From an uncultured Chloroflexia bacterium (GTDB lineage Bacteria; Chloroflexota; Limnocylindria; Limnocylindrales; CSP1-4): a stretch of DNA of 64,000 bases. Shown here piece after piece: positions 42,928-50,686 of the stretch. The stretch lies in the NCBI GenBank assembly GCA_963833225.1, contig CAWHXD010000005.1:1-64000 (forward strand). Direction: 5' to 3'. The position numbers and the translations under genes were made by a program. How positions within the stretch are numbered: position 1 is the first letter of the stretch; every line of letters begins with the position of its first letter. The notes beneath the pieces were generated by a model, which saw only the letters and a program-made list of their open reading frames with translations, ran no database searches and had not been told where the DNA came from.

Positions 42928-45126
42928 TCACGCGTCCCGGACAGCGCGCACAAACGTGCCGCCGACACCCGCCGCAATCGAGATCACCCCCGCCCCGATG
43001 ATCACCGGAGCGGCCGTGAACAGCTCCACCAGGACGCCGCCCGCCGCCATCGCCAGGCTCATCCCACCGAACACCAGCGCGAACCGGAAGCTCACCACGC
43101 GTCCCATCAGCTCCGGCGGCGTGCGCTCCTGGAACAGCGTCTGGCTGGGGATCACGAAGGCCATGTTCGCGACGCCCATCCCGAACAGGATCCCGAGCAC
43201 CGCGGTCACGTTGCCCACCAGCCCCAGCGCCACCCCGCCCACCCCGAACGCGATGTACGCCACGATGATCAGCCGCCCCTTGCGAGCCCGGCCGGCGACC
43301 GCGCCCAGCAGGAACCCGCCGATCAGGCTGCCCGCGCCGATCGCCGTCTCCATGAACGCGTAGGTCGCGCGCCAGGCCGGCTCCGGTGCCGTGGTGATCT
43401 CGCGAGCGAGGATCACCGTGGCCACCAGCAGCATGCCCAGCGAGAACTGGCCCGCGGCGCCCTGGAGCGTGTTCGCGAGGAGCACCGTCTCGTTGCGCAG
43501 GAAGCCCCAGCCGGCCCGGAGATCCTCGCCAACCGACGTGCGTCCCTCGTCCGTGCGCGGTGTCTCGCCCGCCGTCTCGCCGGCGGTCTCGGCGTCGCCC
43601 GGCCTCGCCGCTGCGGCGGCACGGCGGATCAGCGGCGGCACCACGATCGTGGCGATCAGGCCCGCGGACGCGAGATACGTCACCGAGTCGAACCAGAAGG
43701 CGAGCGCCAGGGAGTCCCGGAGGAAGACCACGAACAGGCCCGCCAGCGGGTAGTTGATGACGTCCGCGATCGTCTCCGCCACCCACATCGCGGAGTTGGC
43801 CGAAAGCAGGTCCTCCTCGTCCACGATGCGCGGCAGGATCGCCTGCCTGGCCGGCCGGAAGAAGATCGAGATCGTGGTCAGCAGGAACACCAGCGGGTAG
43901 GCGACCCAGACGTTGAGCAGGATCGCGACCGGCACCAGCAGCACCACCGCCGCTCGCAGGATGTCCGACACCACCAGGACCTGCTTCTGGTCCCAGCGGT
44001 CGACGAAGGTGCCCGCGATCGGCGACAGGAACAGGTTGGGGACCGTGGCCACAAAGAACATCAGCGCCGTGAGCAGCGCGGAGTCGGTCAGCTCGTACAC
44101 GAACGCTGCCAGCGCGATCTGGTTCACGCGATCGCCGAACAGGCTGATGATCTGGCCCACCCACAGGGCCGAGAACGACGGATTGAGCGCGAGGCGGACG
44201 TAGGGGTGGCTCCGGACGCGCTCGGCCAGCGAGGGCAGGCCCGGAACCCCGAGCCTGACCAGGTCTCCTGGGGCAATCGTGTTCTCGCGGACCACCGCCG
44301 CGGCGTGCTGGCCGCGGGAGGTCAGCTCCACGGCTCGCGCCTCCGCCTCCTCGAGGGGGAATGGCGCCAGCGCTGGCGACGCGAGACCGATGCCACCGGC
44401 GCCCATCATCAGCGGCCGCTCGAGCGCCAGGGCTTCGTCGAAGGCCGAGTTCAGGCCCGAGCCCGCCCGGACCGCATTGCCTTCCTCGTCGACCGGCGCC
44501 AGGGTCCCCGGCAGGCGCAGCGTGCCCGCCAGGCCCTCGTATCGGCCCGCACGGGCGTCGTCAACCGCTTGCTGGGCCTGCTCCGGGCGCCGGAGCAGCG
44601 TCGCGAACAGGAAGAAGCCAAGACCCGCCGTGAGGAACACGTCGCCAAGCGAGGCAACGTTCTGGATCGGCGGGAAGGGGATCGGGATGATGTCGCCCAG
44701 CGGTCCGAGGCGGAACAGGAACTCTGGCCCGATCTGCGCGGGCAGCGTGAAGTGCAGGACCGAGTCCAGCGGCGGCGTCAGCCCCGACGCCTCGAACGCC
44801 GGCAGCCACACCGGCATCCGGCCGCCGTTGGCCGTGATCGCGAGGGCGTTGGCCGCCACGCCCACGAACGCCAGAGCCAGGCCCGGGTACCAACGGTTGT
44901 GCCACAGCGTGAACAGCAGGAGCCCGTAGGCAGATCCCAGGAGTGGGGCGCGCAGCGTCTCGACCAGGGGGATGTTCCAGCCCAGTGCGAGCTCCGTCGC
45001 GAACCGGATGATGACCGCGAGGAACAGCAGCGGCAGGAACCGCAGTCGGATCGTCGCGAGGTGCTCGAGCTTGCCGCCGAGCAAGAGGCCGAGGACCAGC
45101 CCGAGGATGATCCCGATGGTCAGCAA
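42928..45126 (-). CDS. DUF5317-like membrane domain fused to an MFS transporter (MefA/EntS-like)
   Basis: N-term GGKL..L, NALAITANGGRMPV, LGPLGDIIP..SLGDV; linker; then FSALWVGQIISLFGD, AGTFVDRWD, FFRPARQAILP, QERTPPELMGRV in one 732-aa frame. Confidence 0.8.
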   Translation of the reverse strand: MLTIGIILGLVLGLLLGGKLEHLATIRLRFLPLLFLAVIIRFATELALGWNIPLVETLRAPLLGSAYGLLLFTLWHNRWYPGLALAFVGVAANALAITANGGRMPVWLPAFEASGLTPPLDSVLHFTLPAQIGPEFLFRLGPLGDIIPIPFPPIQNVASLGDVFLTAGLGFFLFATLLRRPEQAQQAVDDARAGRYEGLAGTLRLPGTLAPVDEEGNAVRAGSGLNSAFDEALALERPLMMGAGGIGLASPALAPFPLEEAEARAVELTSRGQHAAAVVRENTIAPGDLVRLGVPGLPSLAERVRSHPYVRLALNPSFSALWVGQIISLFGDRVNQIALAAFVYELTDSALLTALMFFVATVPNLFLSPIAGTFVDRWDQKQVLVVSDILRAAVVLLVPVAILLNVWVAYPLVFLLTTISIFFRPARQAILPRIVDEEDLLSANSAMWVAETIADVINYPLAGLFVVFLRDSLALAFWFDSVTYLASAGLIATIVVPPLIRRAAAAARPGDAETAGETAGETPRTDEGRTSVGEDLRAGWGFLRNETVLLANTLQGAAGQFSLGMLLVATVILAREITTAPEPAWRATYAFMETAIGAGSLIGGFLLGAVAGRARKGRLIIVAYIAFGVGGVALGLVGNVTAVLGILFGMGVANMAFVIPSQTLFQERTPPELMGRVVSFRFALVFGGMSLAMAAGGVLVELFTAAPVIIGAGVISIAAGVGGTFVRAVRDA

Positions 45127-45160: not shown

Positions 45161-46657
45161 TCAGCGTGGCTCAGCCGGGCGGGCCGCCCGTGCCGTCGGC
45201 GGCACGACGTTCACGGATCCCGGGCTCGCCGCGGGCGCCGCTCCTGGGCCTGGCGCCACGCCCGCGGGCTGCCCCGTGCCCGAGGCCAGCGCGGCCCCCG
45301 GGTTGGGGTGCTGTCCGATGAGGGGGATCGGTTGCGGCTGGATCGTGCGACCCGGGTCCGCCACACCTTCTGCCCAGTGCGTCTGGACGAAGGCGTCCAC
45401 GATCCTCGGGTCGAACTGGATCCCTGCGAACTTGCGCAGCTCGGCGATCGCCTGCTCAGGCGTGAGCGGCGTCATGCGGTATGGGCGTGCCGCCGTCATC
45501 GCCTCGAACGAGTCCGCCACGTGGAGGATCCGCGCCAGCAGCGGGATCTCGTCGCCGATCAGGCGGTCCGGGTAGCCCGAGCCGTTGTACCACTCGTGGT
45601 GGTGCCGGATGATCGGCAACTCCCGGGACAGCCGGTTCACCTTCTCGATGATCTGGGCACCCAGGACTGGGTGCGAGTTCATCATGATCCGCTCCTCCTT
45701 GGTCAAGCGGTCCTGCTTGAGGAGCACGGCGTCTGGCACCCCGATCTTGCCGACATCGTGGAGGAGACCACCCCATTCAAGCGCCTCGAGGTCCGCCGCG
45801 CCCAGCCGCATCACCCGCCCGATGTCGCCGCCGATCTCCTTCACCCGCCAGGAGTGGCGGCTCGTGTACGGGTCGCGCTTGTCAACGGCCTCTGCCAGGG
45901 CCGTGATCGTCTGGGTGAACATCTCGCGCATCTCGGTGTAGTTCCGGTACGCGAGGCGGGTCATGTAGAGCGGCAGGGCGAACAGCAGGCTCGCCCACGC
46001 GGCGATCACATAGATCTGGGCCATCAGCCAGCCGATCGGCGCGAGGCTCACGATGCTCGTGGCAACGGAGCGCGACTCGGCCCGAATGATGCTCGCGGCG
46101 CTCTCCTCGGTCCTCAGGGAAACGCTGAACGCCACCAAACCGGCGTTCACCGCGAGGAACACGGCCCCGCCCGCCAGTGCCACCAGGAAGATCGTCGGCG
46201 AACCTAGAGCCTGACTCCAGGCTGCCGGGTCTTGCGGCGGGACGCCAAGGGCCATCATGAAGAGTCCCGCCACGACGGCCGGCACGATGATCTCAGCGTG
46301 GTTGGACAGGGTTCCGTACCAAGGCACGCGGCCCCGAAGCTCGCGAACTTCTGTGGTCCCGAGGAGGCCGACCCATGCCCCTGCCGTCGGCCCGCCGACG
46401 ATGGTCGCCGCCGTGATCGTCGACACGGAGACGGCAAACATGGCACCCCGAGGCATCTTGACGGGCAAGGAAGATGCGACGAGGGTCACCAAGATCCAGA
46501 ACGCTAGCCCGGCGACGGGGGCGAGGTCCCCAAACTCCACGAAGCCTGCCGCGATCGGTGAGGTGGCACGCAGGGGAAATAGAAGAGTCGTGGCGACAAG
46601 CGCGACTGCGCTCGTTGCCACGACCCCTGCGATGTAGAGCTTCAGTTTCCTCGGCAT
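45161..46657 (-). CDS. Membrane-bound HD-GYP cyclic dinucleotide phosphodiesterase
   Basis: About 7 N-terminal hydrophobic helices; DPYTSRHS, LHDVGKIG, HHEWYNGSGYP, VADSFEAM..RPYR, GIQFDP. Confidence 0.92.
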   Translation of the reverse strand: MPRKLKLYIAGVVATSAVALVATTLLFPLRATSPIAAGFVEFGDLAPVAGLAFWILVTLVASSLPVKMPRGAMFAVSVSTITAATIVGGPTAGAWVGLLGTTEVRELRGRVPWYGTLSNHAEIIVPAVVAGLFMMALGVPPQDPAAWSQALGSPTIFLVALAGGAVFLAVNAGLVAFSVSLRTEESAASIIRAESRSVATSIVSLAPIGWLMAQIYVIAAWASLLFALPLYMTRLAYRNYTEMREMFTQTITALAEAVDKRDPYTSRHSWRVKEIGGDIGRVMRLGAADLEALEWGGLLHDVGKIGVPDAVLLKQDRLTKEERIMMNSHPVLGAQIIEKVNRLSRELPIIRHHHEWYNGSGYPDRLIGDEIPLLARILHVADSFEAMTAARPYRMTPLTPEQAIAELRKFAGIQFDPRIVDAFVQTHWAEGVADPGRTIQPQPIPLIGQHPNPGAALASGTGQPAGVAPGPGAAPAASPGSVNVVPPTARAARPAEPR

Positions 46658-46745
46658 CCGTCCCCAGTTCCCGATGTACTTCGGGACTCTAGCCCGTCCG
46701 CCCTATCTCAGTGAACAGGACTTGAGTACTGAGGTGGAGTTGAGG

Positions 46746-46835
46746 CTAGAAGCCCCGAAGTGACGCTCCCCCGGCGAGTGCCACGGCGGCAACAGCGCTC
46801 AGGGCAACCAGGACACGCAGAAGGCGATCCTTCAT
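46746..46835 (-). CDS. 29-aa hydrophobic micro-peptide MKDRLLRVLVALSAVAAVALAGGASLRGF (not in ORF track)
   Basis: ATG at 46835, GGAGGA RBS 7 nt upstream, TAG at 46746-48; basic N-term, hydrophobic core, GG, short tail ending in an aromatic residue. Confidence 0.8.
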   Translation of the reverse strand: MKDRLLRVLVALSAVAAVALAGGASLRGF

Positions 46836-46857
46836 CGGTCGATCCTCCGCGCCCCTT

Positions 46858-46890
46858 CTACCAGGACTTGAAAGCCTTGGTCGGTCCCAC
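46858..46890 (-). CDS. Putative 10-aa upstream micro-ORF MGPTKAFKSW
   Basis: GTG at 46890 with GAGGAGGA RBS 6 nt upstream; same GGAGGATCGA context as the 29-aa ORF. Confidence 0.4.
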   Translation of the reverse strand: MGPTKAFKSW

Positions 46891-46912
46891 GCTCGATCCT
46901 CCTCGCGGCTCC

Positions 46913-47066
46913 CGTGTCCCTTCCAGGAACACGAAAACCGACCTGACTCGAAAGTCGGTCGGTTGCACTACTCGCTCCACCCTCACCCTAAGTGCCCAGT
47001 TCAGGTGAGGGCATCTGCGCGTCCGAGCGTTCTTTGTGGCCCAGTACGTTCGTACTAGTACGGGCC
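46913..47066 (-). ncRNA. Putative structured 5' leader RNA (four consecutive stem-loops)
   Basis: Stems at 46913-46933, 46936-46964, 46973-47029 and 47038-47066, paired by eye. Confidence 0.45.
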
Positions 47067-47119
47067 GGACTATAGGTAGCCCGGACACCACCGGTCAATA
47101 CGCAACCCTACCTATGTCC
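47067..47119 (-). promoter_or_regulatory. Sigma70-type promoter with overlapping inverted repeat
   Basis: TTGACC (47093-98) N18 TATAGT (47069-74); inverted repeat ATAGGTAG (47072-79) / CTACCTAT (47108-15). Confidence 0.6.
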
Positions 47120-47173
47120 ACCGATCCAGATCGGCTCACTTCCGCCCGACACTTGGCACAGGCGGCGCGGAGA

Positions 47174-50100
47174 CTAGATGTCCTCGTAGGAGGGAGGCTC
47201 CGCGGCCAGTTCGCTCCGGACATACGCTGCGTAGTGGGCGTACTGCTCGGCCGCAGCGGCCCGTCGCCCACTCCGCTTGTATGCTCGCAACAACTCAAGC
47301 TCTATTGCATCGGCTTGCGGATCCACCGCAAGGACGGCTTGGCCGACGCGGATCGCCGCATCGTAGTCGGCTCGCTGTTGGCTACGGGTCATCTCCGCTT
47401 CAGAGGCCGCCAAGACCGCGGCATGAAGATTCTCACGGTAGGTCGACGCCCATTCCTCGTAGGCGAATGTGAGCGCATAGCGGCCGCGGTAGTTGCGCAG
47501 CAACTCGAAGAGGGCCTGGTCATCACCTTCCTTCGCGCTGTCGATCAGAAGCCAGCACTTACGACTCACCACGTTGACGAGTCCGTCGTTCAGGCTCACG
47601 ACGTCACCGTCGAACTGGATGTAGCCGGCGCTCATGCCCTCGCGGTAGTCGGGTTCGAGCACTCTGCGAAGGAAGTAGATGGCCTGGTGTAAGGAGTTAC
47701 CCCCCGCCTCAACCCCTAGTTCGGGCCACAGTGCTTCGATCACTTCTTCCCTGTTGGCGGACATCCGAGGTCGCGATGCAAGGAAGCAGACGAGCGAGAG
47801 GACCTTCCGCCTCAGGTATCGGGGCTGATCCTCGCCCTCGAGGAACACCTCGACGGCCCCCAAATCCGAGACTGTCACTGCGCCTGCAAGCCTCTTCGTG
47901 ATCGCCAGCGCGCTGGGTCGAAGGGACTTGTTCGTACTCGCAGCCTTGCGCAGCAGGGCGGCATCCTCGGCAGACCCGACCTCCGCCAAGATTGCGCTGG
48001 CGAACACGGCTGCTTCCAGGTTCCCTCGGATCGCTTGCACCACCGGGGAACGCCAACGATCGGGCCGAAGCTTGGCTTCACGTTCGAGCATGGCCCGACT
48101 TTCAGCCGAGAGCAGGTGAAGCCTCACGACCAGTTCCTCGGCCAGCAGCGACCAGCAATAGGCCCCGGAGGCACTCCGTGAGAGGGCCTCATCAAGTGGC
48201 ACCCCAGTTGCCGCATCGACGAGCAGAGCGGCAAGGTATGAGCCGCGGCGCGTGTTCTGAGCACCCGCGACACGAGAGGCCTCCTCGGCCGCGGCCTTTG
48301 CCGCCGGATCGCCCTTGTGGAGAGCAACACGTGTCGCGAGGATCTGTGTTCTCAACTTGCCGGCGGCGTCGGCGCATCGATCTTGGCCAAGGCGCGTCAG
48401 GCTCGCTAGGGCCGCCGAGGTGTCCCCTTGGCGAAGGGCGGTCTCGCCGACAAGGAGGTTGTAAATGCCCACATGCCCTCGGGACAGCAGCGTCGGGTCA
48501 AGGTGCTGGAGCCACACACTCGCCTCGTCCGCCGATCCGAACTCGGTCTCTATCCGCGCCGCCTCGAGGCAGACTTCGGCGTTCGCGAGCAGGCTTCCCG
48601 CAGGTGCTGCGCAAGACGTGATCGCGCGCGACTCGGCCAGCCGCCCCAATTGGGCCTCTGCGGCAGCCACCATCATCGTCGCGGACACTCGCTCCACCGA
48701 TCCGTGCGCGCGGCCACCTAGGAGTGTTTCCGCCAGCGAGGCTTCCCTGAGCGCGTCTGCCGCGTCACCCAGCCAGAGAAGTACGCCGGAGAGGTTCAGC
48801 CGCGACACGCCCGCATACCGACTGCGCCCCTCCCTCTCCTGGTCGGCGGCCAACCTCCGAAGCGACTCGGCAATCTCGAGCAGATCCCCTTCTTGACTGG
48901 CCTGCATCAGGGTCAGATTGGCGAGGGCGACATAGCGCTGCGGTGGAGTGAGCGCCTCCCTAAGGGCCCGGGCGTTGGCCTCGGCAGCCTCGTCAGCGAC
49001 GCCGAACACCCCGAGGGTTGAGGCCAGCGTCAGAAGCGAGAGTCCGCTGAGTGTGCCGCCTGCGCTTTGCTCGACTGCCACTCGCGCCCATCGGACGGCC
49101 GTCGGGAAGTCTCCGCGCTGCAGTTCCAACCTCGAGCGAAGGATGAGGGCAGTAGGGCGGTCTGGGTCTCCGGCACCAGCGTCCAGAAACCCCCTTGCGA
49201 GTTCGAATTCCCCGGCGGCGATGATCTCCTCGAGCGAGCTGTCCACGACCGACGCACAGGCTTGGATGTCACCCGCCATCAGGTAGTGCCATGCGCTCAC
49301 GTTCCATCCGAACGCCCTGAGCTCCACGGCCAACGATCGATGCAAGTCCCTGACTGCCTGCCCGCCAATGCTCGCGGCAAGCCGTGTTTGGAGGAACTCC
49401 TGAACCAGCGGATGAAACCGATGTGGTGACACACGGTCCGGCTTCGTCAGCAGGCCAAGGCGCTCCGCATCCGCAATCGCCCGGCGCGCATGCTCGTCGT
49501 CAACTTGGCCGACAGAGATTGCAGACGCCACATCAACCGTCGTCAGAACCGATGCTCGCATGAGGAAGTCGGTCAGGTCACTTGGCAAGGAGGCAAGCAC
49601 CTCCTCGGCAAGGAAGTCGTACATGTCGCTCGCCGATGCCCTGAGGTGAGCTACAAAATCACGCGGGTCTTGTCGCTCCGCGAGTCGGGCGTTTACTAGG
49701 GTCAGGAGGGCTGGCCAGCCGTCGGTTCGCTCGCAGAGATCGGAGACAAGGTCCTGGTCCAGGGGGTGCCGGTAGGCGTCACGGAACAGGCTTGATGTCT
49801 CGGCGACGTCAAAACGGAGGTCCTGTCCGCTCAGGGCCATGACCCCACCGCGAGCCCGGAGGCGGCCGACGGCGAGCGAGGGCTTCGACCGCGACGCGAG
49901 GATCACGGAGAACCCTGGCCCGGTGCGGTCGAGCAGGGCACGGACGATGGGCTCGGTCTCGTCGAACCCGTCGACGAGGTGGTAGTCGTCAATGATCAGG
50001 GTCAGGCCGCGCTCGCTGCGAGTGCCGAACTCTGCCATCTCGCGCGCGATGGTGAGCACGAGGTCCTTCTGCGTTGGACCCCCGGTGCCCAGGGCGAGCA

Positions 50101-50686
50101 GCATAGCGAAGGTGGTCGGCGCGAAGCCCGGCTGGAGTTCGCGCCCGGAGGCGACGAGGTGACGCACGAACGTCAGCCAGTCGCGGTCGTCCGCCTCCAG
50201 GCGGTACCAGGCGGTCATCCGCCGCGTGTGCCGGGCCCAGTCGCCCAGGAGCGTGGTCTTGCCGAAGCCGGCCTCGGCGATGATCAGGCCGAGACGGCCC
50301 GCCGCAGCCTGTTCCAGCCACGAGTTCAGACGAGGTCGCGAGAGCGTGTCGCTGCGCTTGAGAGGGCAGTGGATCTTGGCCGGCTGGACGGGCAGCGGAT
50401 TCATGCCGTACGCACCGGACCCCAGGATCGGCCCGGCGAACCCAGGCCCGACGGCGACCAACCCATGCCCGTCGTGTGCACTCCTCCCGGGCGACGCGGG
50501 CCGCGCTTCCGCGGACGGGGTGGCGCCGCTGTTGGTGCCTGACGATACGGCAGGTTGTGGCGCGGAGGTCGGCTCCCCATGCACCCGGGGATGCACCCGG
50601 GCGGATTGCCCGCCGGATGAGGCGCGGTCGCTGATGGGCTGGCTGGTCGTCGGGGGCATGGCGACATCGTGCCGTGTGCCACTCAA
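47174..50686 (-). CDS. Large MalT-like STAND ATPase regulator with TPR-like middle and C-terminal BTAD-like region (true start may be 50405 or 50659)
   Basis: PAKIHCP..RPRL, Walker A AEAGFGKTTLL, LIIDDYH, TDGWPA, YDFLAEEVL, RFHPLVQEFL; C-term REEVIEALWPE, LHQAIYFLRRVLEP, YRGRY..YEEWA. Confidence 0.85.
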   Translation of the reverse strand: MSGTRHDVAMPPTTSQPISDRASSGGQSARVHPRVHGEPTSAPQPAVSSGTNSGATPSAEARPASPGRSAHDGHGLVAVGPGFAGPILGSGAYGMNPLPVQPAKIHCPLKRSDTLSRPRLNSWLEQAAAGRLGLIIAEAGFGKTTLLGDWARHTRRMTAWYRLEADDRDWLTFVRHLVASGRELQPGFAPTTFAMLLALGTGGPTQKDLVLTIAREMAEFGTRSERGLTLIIDDYHLVDGFDETEPIVRALLDRTGPGFSVILASRSKPSLAVGRLRARGGVMALSGQDLRFDVAETSSLFRDAYRHPLDQDLVSDLCERTDGWPALLTLVNARLAERQDPRDFVAHLRASASDMYDFLAEEVLASLPSDLTDFLMRASVLTTVDVASAISVGQVDDEHARRAIADAERLGLLTKPDRVSPHRFHPLVQEFLQTRLAASIGGQAVRDLHRSLAVELRAFGWNVSAWHYLMAGDIQACASVVDSSLEEIIAAGEFELARGFLDAGAGDPDRPTALILRSRLELQRGDFPTAVRWARVAVEQSAGGTLSGLSLLTLASTLGVFGVADEAAEANARALREALTPPQRYVALANLTLMQASQEGDLLEIAESLRRLAADQEREGRSRYAGVSRLNLSGVLLWLGDAADALREASLAETLLGGRAHGSVERVSATMMVAAAEAQLGRLAESRAITSCAAPAGSLLANAEVCLEAARIETEFGSADEASVWLQHLDPTLLSRGHVGIYNLLVGETALRQGDTSAALASLTRLGQDRCADAAGKLRTQILATRVALHKGDPAAKAAAEEASRVAGAQNTRRGSYLAALLVDAATGVPLDEALSRSASGAYCWSLLAEELVVRLHLLSAESRAMLEREAKLRPDRWRSPVVQAIRGNLEAAVFASAILAEVGSAEDAALLRKAASTNKSLRPSALAITKRLAGAVTVSDLGAVEVFLEGEDQPRYLRRKVLSLVCFLASRPRMSANREEVIEALWPELGVEAGGNSLHQAIYFLRRVLEPDYREGMSAGYIQFDGDVVSLNDGLVNVVSRKCWLLIDSAKEGDDQALFELLRNYRGRYALTFAYEEWASTYRENLHAAVLAASEAEMTRSQQRADYDAAIRVGQAVLAVDPQADAIELELLRAYKRSGRRAAAAEQYAHYAAYVRSELAAEPPSYEDI

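What the first reader, a model, noticed from the sequence alone, without database searches (positions are those of the whole stretch)
46746..46848. Hidden 29-aa peptide MKDRLLRVLVALSAVAAVALAGG-ASLRGF directly upstream of the HD-GYP gene
Seen: GGAGGA RBS, 7-nt spacer, ATG and TAG. The layout is signal-peptide-like (basic N-region, Ala/Val/Leu helix), then Gly-Gly and a 6-residue tail ending in Phe, with no mature protein behind it. Inference: a secreted or cleaved pheromone precursor releasing e.g. ASLRGF or GGASLRGF. An alternative is a small membrane protein that modulates the HD-GYP directly, or a type I toxin.
Basis: partly seen in the sequence, partly recalled or inferred. Interest (0 to 1): 0.85.

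Follow-up and report, generated by a model that had tools for sequence, protein, structure and literature searches.

The report
Riboswitch-controlled 29-residue membrane peptide gene
A tiny but strongly conserved gene for a 29-residue membrane-type peptide lies between a c-di-GMP-sensing RNA switch and the gene of a c-di-GMP-degrading enzyme in Limnocylindria bacteria, which points to an undescribed small player in this signalling loop.

Summary
The ORF is real and is exactly as described, but it lies on the minus strand (ATG 46835 to TAG 46746, RBS 46848-46843). It is a conserved gene. The same 28-32-codon frame, with RBS and a stop right after the last residue, lies upstream of the HD-GYP orthologue in 13 of 14 congeneric loci. 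It is also in 35 of 35 loci of other genera, 12 of 12 loci of a second family, and 73 of 78 (77 by eye) species-representative loci. Median dN/dS is 0.13. It was found only in two families of class Limnocylindria (Chloroflexota).

A c-di-GMP-II riboswitch (Rfam 66.6 bits, cut-off 53.5) with an overlapping terminator lies upstream. Between it and the peptide gene is a second conserved 6-10-codon micro-ORF. That micro-ORF ends in the same basic-small-aromatic-stop motif as the peptide.

The peptide has a +2/+3 N-terminus, an uncharged 19-residue core and an almost invariant A-x-A-G-G-A-S-L-[RK]-G-F end.

My best reading (about 0.4) is a c-di-GMP-induced single-span micro-protein that acts on the co-transcribed membrane HD-GYP. 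A released octapeptide (about 0.25) and a purely cis-acting leader ORF (about 0.15) remain open. A type I toxin is unlikely.

The parts
47174..50686 (-). Upstream gene: 1170-aa STAND-type regulator. It has a MalT-like ATPase in the N-terminal half, and an OmpR-type winged helix plus BTAD domain at the C-terminus.
   Evidence: Pfam BTAD 6.3e-09, AAA_16, Trans_reg_C. NCBIfam MalT 7.2e-56, below its cut-off. A homologue lies upstream of the small ORF in 42 of 47 loci by tblastn.
47069..47098 (-). Promoter-like site P1: TTGACC, 18 nt, TATAGT
   Evidence: The consensus scan found 1 site against 0.1 expected. Both hexamers are nearly invariant in the 15-sequence leader alignment.
47044..47061 (-). 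Conserved palindrome or 5' hairpin (GTACTAGTAC, then GTAC) just downstream of the -10 hexamer
   Evidence: Read. Its function was not tested.
46949..47033 (-). c-di-GMP-II riboswitch aptamer (RF01786)
   Evidence: 66.6 bits against a gathering score of 53.5, E 2.8e-14, full model 1-84. Found upstream of the orthologous operon in 14 of 14 congeneric loci (11 at or above the cut-off). Also in 18 of 20 loci of other genera at gathering and 12 of 12 loci of family f4 (8 at or above the cut-off).
46926..46960 (-). Terminator-like hairpin plus T-rich tail. Its 5' arm overlaps the 3' end of the aptamer (46960-46949).
   Evidence: Scan and MFE fold. The hairpin CCGACC...GGTCGG is in 48 of 50 f1 loci, with a T-rich tail in 40 of 50. 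In f4 the hairpin is in 12 of 12 loci but a T-rich tail in 0 of 12.
46905..46942 (-). Conserved helix after the terminator. It pairs the terminator's 3' arm and U-tract (46942-46927) with 46919-46905, just 5' of the micro-ORF RBS.
   Evidence: RNAalifold on 22 loci gives 15 pairs. Three pairs show changes on both sides, most others one-sided G-U/A-U changes, and few are broken.
46858..46903 (-). Micro-ORF with its RBS: AGGAGG 46903-46898, GTG 46890, ten codons (VGPTKAFKSW), TAG 46860-46858
   Evidence: An RBS-preceded ORF of 6-10 codons ending [KR]-x-[WF]-stop was found by script in 57 of 61 loci, plus one more by eye. GTG and ATG starts and TAG, TAA and TGA stops interchange. Three loci carry in-frame tandem repeats of the end motif.
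46746..46848 (-). The finding itself: RBS GGAGGA (46848-46843) and the 29-codon small ORF (ATG 46835 to TAG 46746)
46669..46715 (-). Spacer elements: a possible internal promoter (TTCACT 46715-46710, 18 nt, TAGAGT 46691-46686) and a hairpin (46686-46669) before the HD-GYP RBS
   Evidence: A TA[GT]AGT hexamer about 30 nt before the HD-GYP start recurs in the 32-locus spacer alignment. The site falls below the threshold of the promoter scan. Unverified.
45161..46657 (-). HD-GYP phosphodiesterase gene (498 aa): N-terminal multi-helix membrane domain (about residues 1-240) plus the HD-GYP domain
   Evidence: Pfam HD_5 7.8e-40. HD and GYP motifs are readable in the translation. AlphaFold2 model of residues 1-250: pLDDT 91, pTM 0.86. 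Foldseek best hits are ECF S-components, and weak. MASE9 scores below threshold.
42928..45126 (-). DUF5317 domain fused to an MFS transporter (732 aa), downstream in the same orientation
   Evidence: Pfam DUF5317 4.1e-23, MFS_1 1.2e-25. Homologues lie downstream of the HD-GYP gene in 31 of the 32 loci that are long enough.

Best explanation
SHOWN. The 29-codon ORF is a real gene under purifying selection. It is specific to class Limnocylindria (Chloroflexota). It is the second of two short cistrons in a conserved unit:

- promoter
- c-di-GMP-II riboswitch with an overlapping terminator hairpin
- a micro-ORF of about 10 codons
- the 29-aa ORF
- an HD-GYP phosphodiesterase with a membrane sensor domain
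- a DUF5317/MFS protein

INFERRED.

1. When c-di-GMP is bound, the aptamer holds the 5' arm of the terminator. Transcription then reads through, so this is an ON switch. High c-di-GMP therefore induces the peptide together with the enzyme that degrades c-di-GMP.
2. The peptide inserts into the membrane with the N-terminus inside (+2/+3) and the C-terminus outside. Its uncharged residues 8-26 span the bilayer.
3. It stays there as a single-span micro-protein. Its almost invariant outer end (A-x-A-G-G-A-S-L-[RK]-G-F) contacts the co-transcribed HD-GYP's membrane domain, or less likely DUF5317/MFS, and tunes its activity or stability. In this it works like KdpF, CydX or MgrB, small proteins encoded beside their membrane partners.

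I rate the claim of a real, riboswitch-linked, membrane-type peptide gene at 0.9 or higher. I rate the partner mechanism in step 3 at about 0.4.
For: Reality of the gene.
- It is intact in 13 of 14 congeneric loci, 35 of 35 loci of other genera and 12 of 12 f4 loci.
- An HMM finds it in 73 of 78 species-representative loci. Four of the five misses carry a divergent ...LAGGASLRV[FI]-stop ORF.
- Median dN/dS is 0.13, with variation concentrated at the wobble position.
- All three stop codons are used at the same place.
- The RBS is kept even where its sequence has changed (L029 and L015).
- In 1.84 billion representative proteins there are 130 hits. Of these, 66 are exactly 29 aa and 120 of 130 end in the motif.

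Riboswitch link.

ON-switch geometry: the aptamer (47033-46949) overlaps the hairpin (46960-46936).

Membrane character, over 158 distinct variants.
- There is 1 charged residue among 3002 in positions 8-26.
- Median Kyte-Doolittle hydropathy is 1.94.
- N-terminal net charge is +2 or +3 in 154 of 158.

Partner.
- The HD-GYP gene lies directly downstream in 47 of 47 loci.
- The peptide is more conserved than the HD-GYP membrane domain in all 32 comparisons (identity lists).
- Genomes that the HMM missed still carry a divergent copy in front of the orthologue.
- The sensor domain has an invariant loop, RE.RG..PWYG.

Expression (weak evidence). Contigs from 4 of 4 metatranscriptome runs that I laid cover the ORF at 80-99% identity. 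One example is a 328-nt contig over 46629-46954 with 12 differences. DNA carry-over is not excluded.

Precedent. In C. difficile, c-di-GMP riboswitches control a family of membrane small proteins (PMC13724677; I read the abstract and sections 7 and 9).
Against: - No physical interaction has been shown.
- Conservation is concentrated in the last 8 residues: mean pairwise identity 0.83, against 0.48 for residues 1-21.
- The variable positions show no clear alpha-helical periodicity. Power at 100 degrees is 2.62, against 4.5 at 80-90 degrees and 5.97 at 180 degrees. That gives no evidence of one helix-packing face.
- A19 and A21 are kept as Ala (144 and 155 of 158), and G22, G23 and A24 are almost never exchanged for other small residues. 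This looks more like a recognition or cleavage site than generic small-residue packing.
- The micro-ORF shares the [KR]-x-[WF]-stop end, and the partner model does not explain that.
- In family f4 the hairpin has no T-rich tail (0 of 12), so control by termination may not hold throughout.
- No fused form of peptide plus a large protein was found (longest hit 106 aa), so there is no fusion evidence for an interaction.
- Related genomes are not independent samples.
Confidence: 0.42

Rival explanations
1. Released signal peptide. The ORF would be a precursor consisting only of a signal peptide. After insertion it is cut, either at A-L-A|G-G by signal peptidase I, or after G-G, or within the membrane by a site-2 protease. 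The conserved octa- or hexapeptide (GG)AS-L-[RK]-G-F is then released outside. There it would be sensed by the outward-facing pocket of the HD-GYP sensor domain, or re-imported.
For: - The layout matches a canonical signal peptide: basic residues 1-7, a hydrophobic core, and Ala at -3 and -1 in 144 and 155 of 158 variants, followed by invariant G-G.
- Conservation peaks in the 8 residues behind that site (0.83 against 0.48).
- The tail length is fixed at 8 residues, while the N-terminal part varies from 26 to 36 aa in total.
- An MFS exporter-type gene lies in the same unit.
- The sensor domain model resembles ligand-binding ECF S-components, though weakly: Foldseek E 0.016-1, target-normalised TM 0.5-0.7.
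- Recalled, not from a call: Enterococcus PrgQ/iCF10 and streptococcal SHP precursors are 20-35-aa ORFs that look like signal peptides.
Against: - The presumed mature peptide is nearly invariant across two families and 158 variants. Known peptide pheromones diversify between lineages (recalled).
- No RRNPP-type receptor, C39 peptidase-ABC exporter or peptide permease appears in the conserved block (Pfam and NCBIfam of the three neighbours; synteny).
- The peptide is too short to leave the ribosome before release, so Sec/SRP targeting is uncertain (general knowledge).
- Cleavage was not tested.
Confidence: 0.25
2. Cis-acting leader ORFs. The micro-ORF and the 29-codon ORF would both be regulatory reading frames. 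Their shared [KR]-small-[FW]-stop end would slow termination, and the waiting ribosome would control RNA folding, Rho access or translation of the next cistron (the 29-aa ORF, then the HD-GYP gene). This would add a translational layer behind the riboswitch, and the peptides themselves would have no function in trans.
For: - This is the only model that explains why two consecutive ORFs share the same last three positions and nothing else.
- The motif is rare at protein ends in this genome: [KR]x[FW] in 12 of 2857 long ORFs.
- The micro-ORF is conserved only at its ends, and its length is kept at 6-10 codons.
- A conserved helix abuts its RBS.
- The gaps between micro-ORF stop and next start are short (2-39 nt).
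- TGA is under-used as the small ORF's stop: 10 of 55 against 66% of long ORFs. This is rough, because relatives are not independent, and within the genus TGA is used in 6 of 14.
- Precedent: the 14-aa PepNL stalls at its stop codon, and the penultimate residue matters there (PMC11890864, passages read).
Against: - Residues 8-26 are kept uncharged and hydrophobic in 158 variants, with a +2/+3 N-terminus. That is selection for membrane insertion, which a tunnel-resident arrest peptide would not need.
- All three stop codons occur, so there is no dependence on one release factor.
- The 88-nt spacer to the HD-GYP gene is not conserved between genera, apart from a -10-like hexamer.
- No stalling data exist.
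Confidence: 0.15
3. Peptide ligands of the neighbouring STAND regulator. One or both peptides would bind, through their common [KR]-G-[FW]-COOH end, to the repeat or sensor region of the MalT/AfsR-like regulator encoded directly upstream. That would link c-di-GMP level to transcription.
For: The regulator gene is syntenic in 42 of 47 loci. Both peptides share a C-terminal motif. Recalled: TPR-type domains often clamp C-terminal peptides, and RRNPP receptors bind short peptides.
Against: There is no test of binding. No TPR family was detected in the regulator by Pfam at E <= 0.01. The hydrophobic 29-mer is unlikely to stay soluble in the cytoplasm.
Confidence: 0.06
4. Type I toxin, or a chance ORF in GC-rich DNA.
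For: It is a small hydrophobic peptide of the size of TisB or Hok-like toxins (recalled). ORFs arise easily in DNA of 66% G+C, and the +2 frame is also open in 13 of 14 loci.
Against: There is a single copy in the genome. Its position is fixed between the riboswitch and the HD-GYP gene in two families. Purifying selection acts in this frame. No antisense promoter was found by the scan of 46400-47400.
Confidence: 0.04

Closest known systems
C. difficile CD1980.2 family of small proteins controlled by c-di-GMP riboswitches (Badilla Lobo et al., Nat Commun 2026, PMC13724677; abstract and sections 7 and 9 read)
   Same: Previously unannotated small ORFs lie directly behind c-di-GMP riboswitches. 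The products are membrane-associated, and the riboswitch acts by premature termination.
   Different: The C. difficile proteins are 58 aa, predicted to form a four-helix bundle, and multicopy (5-7 paralogues). They stand behind class I riboswitches that switch OFF with c-di-GMP, and they act on sporulation. The paper reports no homologues outside C. difficile.

Here the peptide is 29 aa with one hydrophobic segment and is single-copy. It stands behind a class II riboswitch that by geometry looks like an ON switch. It is followed by an HD-GYP gene and preceded by a micro-ORF. It occurs in Chloroflexota.
Small single-span subunits or modulators encoded beside their membrane partner (KdpF, CydX, MgtS, AcrZ, MgrB; recalled, not from a call)
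   Same: The size (about 30-50 aa), a single hydrophobic helix, a position as a short cistron in the partner's operon, and absence from annotation.
   Different: Those proteins are mostly poorly conserved in sequence. This one has an almost invariant 11-residue C-terminal end, and a physical partner has not been shown.
Pheromone or inhibitor precursors that consist only of a signal peptide, in Firmicutes (SHP with Rgg, PrgQ/iCF10, cAD1-type; recalled)
   Same: ORFs of 20-35 aa with a basic N-terminus and a hydrophobic remainder and no mature protein behind. The active part is the C-terminal 7-8 residues.
   Different: Those peptides differ between lineages. They sit beside cytoplasmic RRNPP receptors and need Eep and PptAB. 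Here the end is invariant class-wide, the neighbours are an HD-GYP, an MFS protein and a STAND regulator, and the tail is polar and follows an A-x-A site.
c-di-GMP-II riboswitch (Rfam RF01786; Lee et al. 2010, recalled)
   Same: Full-length match above the gathering score. It lies in a 5' leader on the gene's strand and has a terminator-type expression platform.
   Different: My searches found no paper that mentions this class together with Chloroflexi or Limnocylindria. The leader holds two short ORFs before the first large gene.
Leader ORFs that act at their own stop codon (TnaC, recalled; PepNL, PMC11890864, passages read)
   Same: Very short ORFs in a leader, with conserved C-terminal residues next to the stop. 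This matches the micro-ORF and possibly the 29-codon ORF.
   Different: No stalling has been shown here. All three stop codons are used. The 29-aa ORF has the composition of a membrane segment.

Membership tests
c-di-GMP-II riboswitch (RF01786) | Covariance-model score at or above Rfam's gathering score over the whole model | tested here: met
   66.6 bits against 53.5, model positions 1-84 of 84. The related GAG and GCG variant models scored lower at this site (clan competition).
c-di-GMP-II riboswitch (RF01786) | Lies in the 5' leader of a gene, on that gene's strand, with an expression platform that competes with the aptamer | tested here: met
   A promoter-like site lies 36 nt upstream. The terminator-like hairpin shares 46960-46949 with the aptamer. 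The hairpin is conserved in 48 of 50 f1 loci.
c-di-GMP-II riboswitch (RF01786) | Binds c-di-GMP and changes gene expression | not testable with these tools
   Needs in-line probing and termination assays.
HD-GYP phosphodiesterase (neighbour gene) | HD_5/HD domain carrying the HD and GYP motifs | tested here: met
   Pfam HD_5 7.8e-40. HDVGK and GSGYP are readable in the translation of 46657-45161.
Small single-span membrane proteins that partner a membrane complex | A translated ORF of under 50 aa with its own RBS | tested here: inconclusive
   The RBS, start, frame and purifying selection are conserved. Contigs from RNA libraries cover it. There is no ribosome-profiling or peptide evidence.
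Small single-span membrane proteins that partner a membrane complex | One hydrophobic segment long enough to span a bilayer, with flanking charges obeying the positive-inside rule | tested here: met
   Residues 8-26 have Kyte-Doolittle mean 2.2 in the window's peptide. Over 158 variants the median is 1.94, with 1 charged residue in 3002. The N-terminus is +2 or +3 in 154 of 158.
Small single-span membrane proteins that partner a membrane complex | Physical association with the partner | not testable with these tools
   Only gene adjacency is shown (47 of 47 loci).
Sec-type signal peptide / signal peptidase I substrate | Basic n-region, hydrophobic h-region of about 7-15 residues, small residues at -3 and -1 | tested here: met
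   K2, R4 and R7 are conserved. The h-region is residues 8-20. A19 is kept in 144 of 158 variants and A21 in 155 of 158, followed by G22 in 158 of 158.
Sec-type signal peptide / signal peptidase I substrate | Is cleaved, and the C-terminal part is exported | not testable with these tools
   No signal-peptide predictor or experiment was available.
SHP / PrgQ-type peptide pheromone precursors | Encoded beside a cytoplasmic RRNPP-type receptor | tested here: not met
   The neighbours are a MalT/BTAD-type regulator, an HD-GYP and a DUF5317-MFS protein. No RRNPP family was hit.
SHP / PrgQ-type peptide pheromone precursors | The mature part varies between lineages (pherotypes) | tested here: not met
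   The last 8 residues have 83% mean pairwise identity over 158 variants from two families.
Double-glycine leader peptides (C39 peptidase/ABC exporters) | A G-G cleavage site with a dedicated C39-ABC exporter nearby | tested here: not met
   G22-G23 are present, but the conserved block holds no ABC or C39 gene. Only the three flanking genes were examined.
Type I toxin | A small hydrophobic peptide with an overlapping antisense RNA, often multicopy or patchy | tested here: not met
   One copy in the genome and fixed synteny in two families. No antisense promoter-like site in 46400-47400. Antisense RNA itself was not tested.

The most novel reading that the evidence does not exclude
The riboswitch gates a two-peptide signalling module. 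The cytoplasmic micro-ORF peptide (6-10 aa) and the membrane-targeted 29-mer (or its released octapeptide GGAS-L-[RK]-G-F) share a basic-Gly-aromatic-COOH end that a common receptor reads. That receptor would be the S-component-like sensor domain of the HD-GYP, or the STAND regulator encoded upstream. Intracellular c-di-GMP would thus be converted into a peptide signal that feeds back on c-di-GMP breakdown, within a cell and possibly between cells. This would be a peptide-signalling system outside the Firmicutes, and the first one driven by a riboswitch.
Probability: 0.15. Interest if true: 0.85.

Novelty: new variant of a known kind. Interest (0 to 1): 0.66.

Why it matters
Small proteins are under-annotated, and few have a clear regulatory context. 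This one has an unusually clean context: a second-messenger riboswitch in front and the enzyme that destroys that messenger behind.

It is conserved across a whole class of widespread but uncultured or barely cultured Chloroflexota. If the peptide modulates the HD-GYP, it adds a new component to c-di-GMP homeostasis: riboswitch, then micro-protein, then phosphodiesterase feedback.

It would also give a function to a family that gene callers already emit as 29-aa "hypothetical proteins" (130 cluster representatives). The second micro-ORF with the same C-terminal motif is unexplained. It may point to a peptide-recognition or termination-linked mechanism that can be tested with simple reporters.

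Tried and rejected
Complex prediction. I gave the HD-GYP membrane domain (residues 1-245, 33-row alignment) with the 29-aa peptide (33 rows). The score was 0.02-0.03 against a mark of 0.32, and the controls were not run. The verdict was "no answer", so I do not use it for or against binding. The tool noted that its calibration held no protein under 30 residues.

Read laying. Cover over the body of the HD-GYP gene was low or absent in the four RNA runs. These are contigs of relatives laid at 80% likeness or more, and several contigs run on as unlike sequence at about 46682-46684. The lack of cover therefore says nothing about transcript ends. No habitat is inferred from the small word shares.

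Helical periodicity of the conservation gave no clear signal at 100 degrees.

Covariation of the peptide's last residue (F or W) with the sensor's conserved loop: the loop is invariant in both families, so the comparison is uninformative.

A Rho-utilisation-type C-rich tract after the ORF stop is visible in the window (read). It is not conserved in other genera, so I dropped it.

Stop-codon bias is suggestive overall but not within the genus, so I gave it no weight.

The ESM Atlas search with a 32-aa f4 homologue found only unnamed clusters of 30-32 aa (best 0.91). Pfam and NCBIfam have no family for the peptide.

Literature searches:
- 'c-di-GMP-II riboswitch' + 'HD-GYP': 5 papers hold both terms and 4 were listed. 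I saw only the search listing (titles and abstract starts), and none appeared to concern this arrangement.
- 'DUF5317': 0 papers.
- 'c-di-GMP-II' + 'Chloroflexi': 0.
- 'Limnocylindria' + 'c-di-GMP': 0.

Supplements of the papers were not available and might hold sequences of the C. difficile family.

A correction to my own notebook: note 35 says the regulator lies upstream in 43 of 47 loci. The output gives 42 of 47.
Full report
WHAT IS THERE. The ORF is on the minus strand. GGAGGA is at 46848-46843, followed by a 7-nt spacer. ATG is at 46835 and TAG at 46748-46746. The translation is MKDRLLRVLVALSAVAAVALAGGASLRGF. The next gene on that strand starts at 46657. It is a 498-aa HD-GYP protein (Pfam HD_5 7.8e-40) with a hydrophobic N-terminal half. 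A DUF5317-MFS fusion follows it. A 1170-aa regulator with a MalT-like ATPase plus a winged helix and BTAD domain precedes the region. Record titles of the closest HD-GYP relatives name Candidatus Limnocylindrales/Limnocylindria and other Chloroflexota MAGs. The genome is therefore not actinobacterial, despite its 66-68% G+C.

Rfam places a complete c-di-GMP-II riboswitch aptamer at 47033-46949 on the same strand. It scores 66.6 bits against a gathering score of 53.5, and it is the only Rfam family that reaches its gathering score in the 64-kb window. A promoter-like site (TTGACC, 18 nt, TATAGT; 47098-47069) lies 36 nt upstream. A terminator-like hairpin with a T-rich tail (46960-46926) shares 12 nt with the 3' end of the aptamer. 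The ligand-bound aptamer and the terminator are therefore mutually exclusive. I read this as an ON switch: c-di-GMP gives read-through. This is inference from geometry, not a measurement.

Downstream, RNAalifold on 22 loci finds a further conserved helix. It pairs the terminator's 3' arm and U-tract with the stretch just before the next RBS. It has 15 pairs, three of them with changes on both sides.

IS THE ORF A GENE? I fetched orthologous loci through the HD-GYP protein.
- In 14 of 14 congeneric loci the riboswitch is present: 11 at or above the cut-off and 3 at 49-51 bits.
- In 13 of 14 the 29-codon ORF is intact, with ATG, RBS and a stop at the same position. The exception, L016, is frameshifted, and its HD-GYP gene is broken too.
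- Over the 91 pairs among the 14 intact sequences (the window and 13 relatives), pN/pS is 0.265 and median dN/dS is 0.13. The mean pairwise difference at codon positions 1/2/3 is 0.21/0.11/0.45.
- The two most divergent copies have a different RBS sequence but still have an RBS.
- The genome holds one copy.

A profile of the peptides then found matches in 193 of 401 genomes of the order at E <= 0.01. That is 190 of 358 in family f1 and only 2 weak hits in 42 of the small-genome family f2. At class level there were 92 of 351, including weak hits in a second family, f4. With a broader profile, 27 of 401 genomes of the phylum matched: 13 of 23 in f1, 13 of 16 in f4, and 0 of the other 361. These are lower bounds. 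Genomes of three genera that the profile missed have the HD-GYP orthologue with a divergent small ORF in front of it, for example one ending ...LGAGASYRPF-stop.

In fetched loci the ORF is present in 35 of 35 from other f1 genera and in 12 of 12 from f4. In f4 it is 32-36 aa and ends ...AGGAS-x-[KR]-[GS]-W-stop.

In an independently drawn set of 78 species-representative loci, the HMM finds it in 73. Four of the five misses carry a divergent ...LAGGASLRV[FI]-stop ORF when read by eye. The fifth, L144, has no upstream sequence.

In 1.84 billion cluster representatives there are 130 hits at E <= 0.001.
- 66 are exactly 29 aa and 7 are 32 aa.
- The longer ones are upstream-start extensions or read-throughs, up to 106 aa.
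- None is fused to a large protein.
- 120 of 130 end in the motif.

Gene callers therefore already emit this ORF, but Pfam and NCBIfam have no family for it, and the Atlas clusters carry no name.

SYNTENY. The HD-GYP gene follows the small ORF in 47 of 47 loci. The STAND regulator precedes it in 42 of 47; most of the five misses lie at contig ends or in short loci. DUF5317/MFS follows the HD-GYP gene in 31 of the 32 loci that are long enough. The riboswitch reaches gathering in 18 of 20 loci of other f1 genera. One of the remaining two scores 51.3 bits, and the other was not re-tested. In f4 it is present in 12 of 12 loci, 8 of them at or above the cut-off.

A SECOND SHORT ORF. Between the terminator and the 29-codon ORF lies AGGAGG (46903-46898), 7 nt, then GTG at 46890, ten codons (VGPTKAFKSW) and TAG at 46860-46858. 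A script finds such an RBS-preceded ORF of 6-10 codons ending [KR]-x-[WF]-stop in 57 of 61 loci. One more is visible by eye, and three show the end motif but no in-frame start. The pattern suggests a translated frame:
- Starts switch between GTG and ATG.
- Stops switch between TAG, TAA and TGA.
- The last residue switches between Trp and Phe, a two-base change.
- The middle residues vary freely.
- Three loci carry in-frame tandem repeats of the end motif, in units of 21 or 27 nt.

This micro-ORF ends like the 29-aa peptide ([RK]-G-[FW]-stop). Among 2857 long ORFs of this genome, only 12 end [KR]-x-[FW]. I have no tested explanation for the shared end.

WHAT THE PEPTIDE LOOKS LIKE. These figures come from 158 distinct 29-aa variants.
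- K/R2, R4 and R7 are conserved.
- Positions 8-26 contain 1 charged residue among 3002, with a median Kyte-Doolittle mean of 1.94.
- N-terminal net charge is +2 or +3 in 154 of 158. The tail carries +1 and the free carboxylate.
- A19 is kept in 144 of 158, A21 in 155, G22 in 158, G23 in 157, A24 in 157, S25 in 147, G28 in 146 and F29 in 146.
- Mean pairwise identity is 0.48 for residues 1-21 and 0.83 for residues 22-29.

This is selection for a membrane-inserting segment, N-terminus inside and C-terminus outside by the positive-inside rule, with a specific and nearly invariant outer end. The peptide as a whole is more conserved than the HD-GYP membrane domain in all 32 comparisons.

THE NEIGHBOUR'S SENSOR DOMAIN. 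AlphaFold2 with a 33-row alignment gives a confident all-helical model of residues 1-250 (pLDDT 91, pTM 0.86). The best Foldseek hits in the PDB are ECF-transporter S-components (RibU, ThiT, BioY, FolT). They are weak: E 0.016-1, with TM normalised to the target of 0.5-0.7. Pfam MASE9 scores below its cut-off (E 0.0048). A loop RE.RG..PWYG..NH is invariant in both families. I treat the S-component likeness as a lead only.

EXPRESSION. Four metatranscriptome runs from four studies, held as contigs, carry contigs 80-99% identical to the stretch from about 46629 to 47052. One is a 328-nt contig over 46629-46954 with 12 differences. It spans the end of the aptamer, both short ORFs and the HD-GYP start. 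The tool warns that DNA can be present in RNA libraries and that contigs show neither ends nor levels. This is weak support for transcription of the unit in relatives.

INTERPRETATION. The evidence establishes a riboswitch-linked, membrane-type small-protein gene (I put this at 0.9 or higher). The mechanism is inferred.

I prefer a resident single-span micro-protein that works on the co-transcribed HD-GYP (about 0.4). My reasons are:
- the strict gene pairing;
- the class-wide invariance of the outer end, which is unlike pheromones;
- the many precedents of such micro-proteins encoded beside their partners (recalled);
- one recent precedent of membrane small proteins controlled by c-di-GMP riboswitches in C. 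difficile (PMC13724677; abstract and sections 7 and 9 read).

Three points count against it. Conservation is concentrated behind a textbook A-x-A site. There is no helical periodicity in the variable positions. The model does not explain the micro-ORF.

The released-octapeptide model (about 0.25) fits the A-x-A|G-G pattern, the fixed 8-residue tail and the MFS neighbour. It does not fit the invariance or the lack of a known receptor or exporter type.

A purely cis-acting pair of leader ORFs (about 0.15) uniquely explains the shared end and has a precedent in PepNL (PMC11890864, passages read). It does not explain why the ORF keeps the composition of a membrane segment.

Binding to the STAND regulator (about 0.06), and a toxin or chance ORF (about 0.04), are minor options.

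LIMITS. All genomes are MAGs or species representatives. Relatives are not independent, so the counts describe distribution and are not statistics. Several nanopore-type assemblies carry frameshifts. The tally includes one unpublished genome (G248). The search of earlier findings, the listing of cluster members and the search for homologous proteins gave no answer for this query.

Noticed in passing
window 46858-46903 (-): A conserved micro-ORF (RBS AGGAGG, GTG, 10 codons, VGPTKAFKSW) lies between the riboswitch terminator and the 29-aa ORF. It ends in the same basic-small-aromatic-stop motif as the 29-aa peptide. A script found it in 57 of 61 loci.
   Followed up: partly
L053, L055, L056 (micro-ORF region, about 100 nt upstream of the small ORF): In these loci the micro-ORF is lengthened by in-frame tandem repeats of its end motif: TVLAVTKGW four times, SSVTKGF three times and TSVTKGF three times.
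   Followed up: no
window 46686-46715 (-): A possible internal promoter lies in front of the HD-GYP gene (TTCACT, 18 nt, TAGAGT). A TA[GT]AGT hexamer about 30 nt before the HD-GYP start recurs in other genera. If it is real, the riboswitch would mainly control the two short ORFs.
   Followed up: partly
window 47044-47061 (-): A perfect 10-bp palindrome, GTACTAGTAC, followed by GTAC lies just after the -10 hexamer and is conserved in the genus. It could be a 5' stem-loop or an operator.
   Followed up: no
L002 (G000:C19:492964-493048, -) and L003 (G000:C6:331733-331818, -): The same genome carries two variant riboswitches: c-di-GMP-II-GCG (69.3 bits) and c-di-GMP-II-GAG (71.4 bits). Each lies next to a tRNA gene. 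They stand upstream of ORFs of 416 aa and 187 aa whose N-termini look like signal peptides.
   Followed up: partly
window 45923-46657 (-), HD-GYP residues 1-245: The membrane domain of the HD-GYP gives a confident model whose nearest solved folds are vitamin-binding ECF S-components. The matches are weak. MASE9 scores below threshold. Paralogues with this N-terminal domain occur elsewhere in the genome.
   Followed up: partly
small ORF stop codons, 55 loci: TAG is used in 38 loci, TGA in 10 and TAA in 7. Among 2857 long ORFs of this genome the shares are TGA 66%, TAG 32% and TAA 2%. Gly28 is GGC in 42 of 52 Gly codons, while Gly22 and Gly23 mostly use other codons.
   Followed up: no
L104, L116, L117, L133, L135 (record titles): Some MAGs that carry this Limnocylindria-type locus are labelled Verrucomicrobiia, Anaerolinea, Thermomicrobiales or Sulfomarinibacteraceae by their depositors. 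These are probably labelling or binning differences.
   Followed up: no
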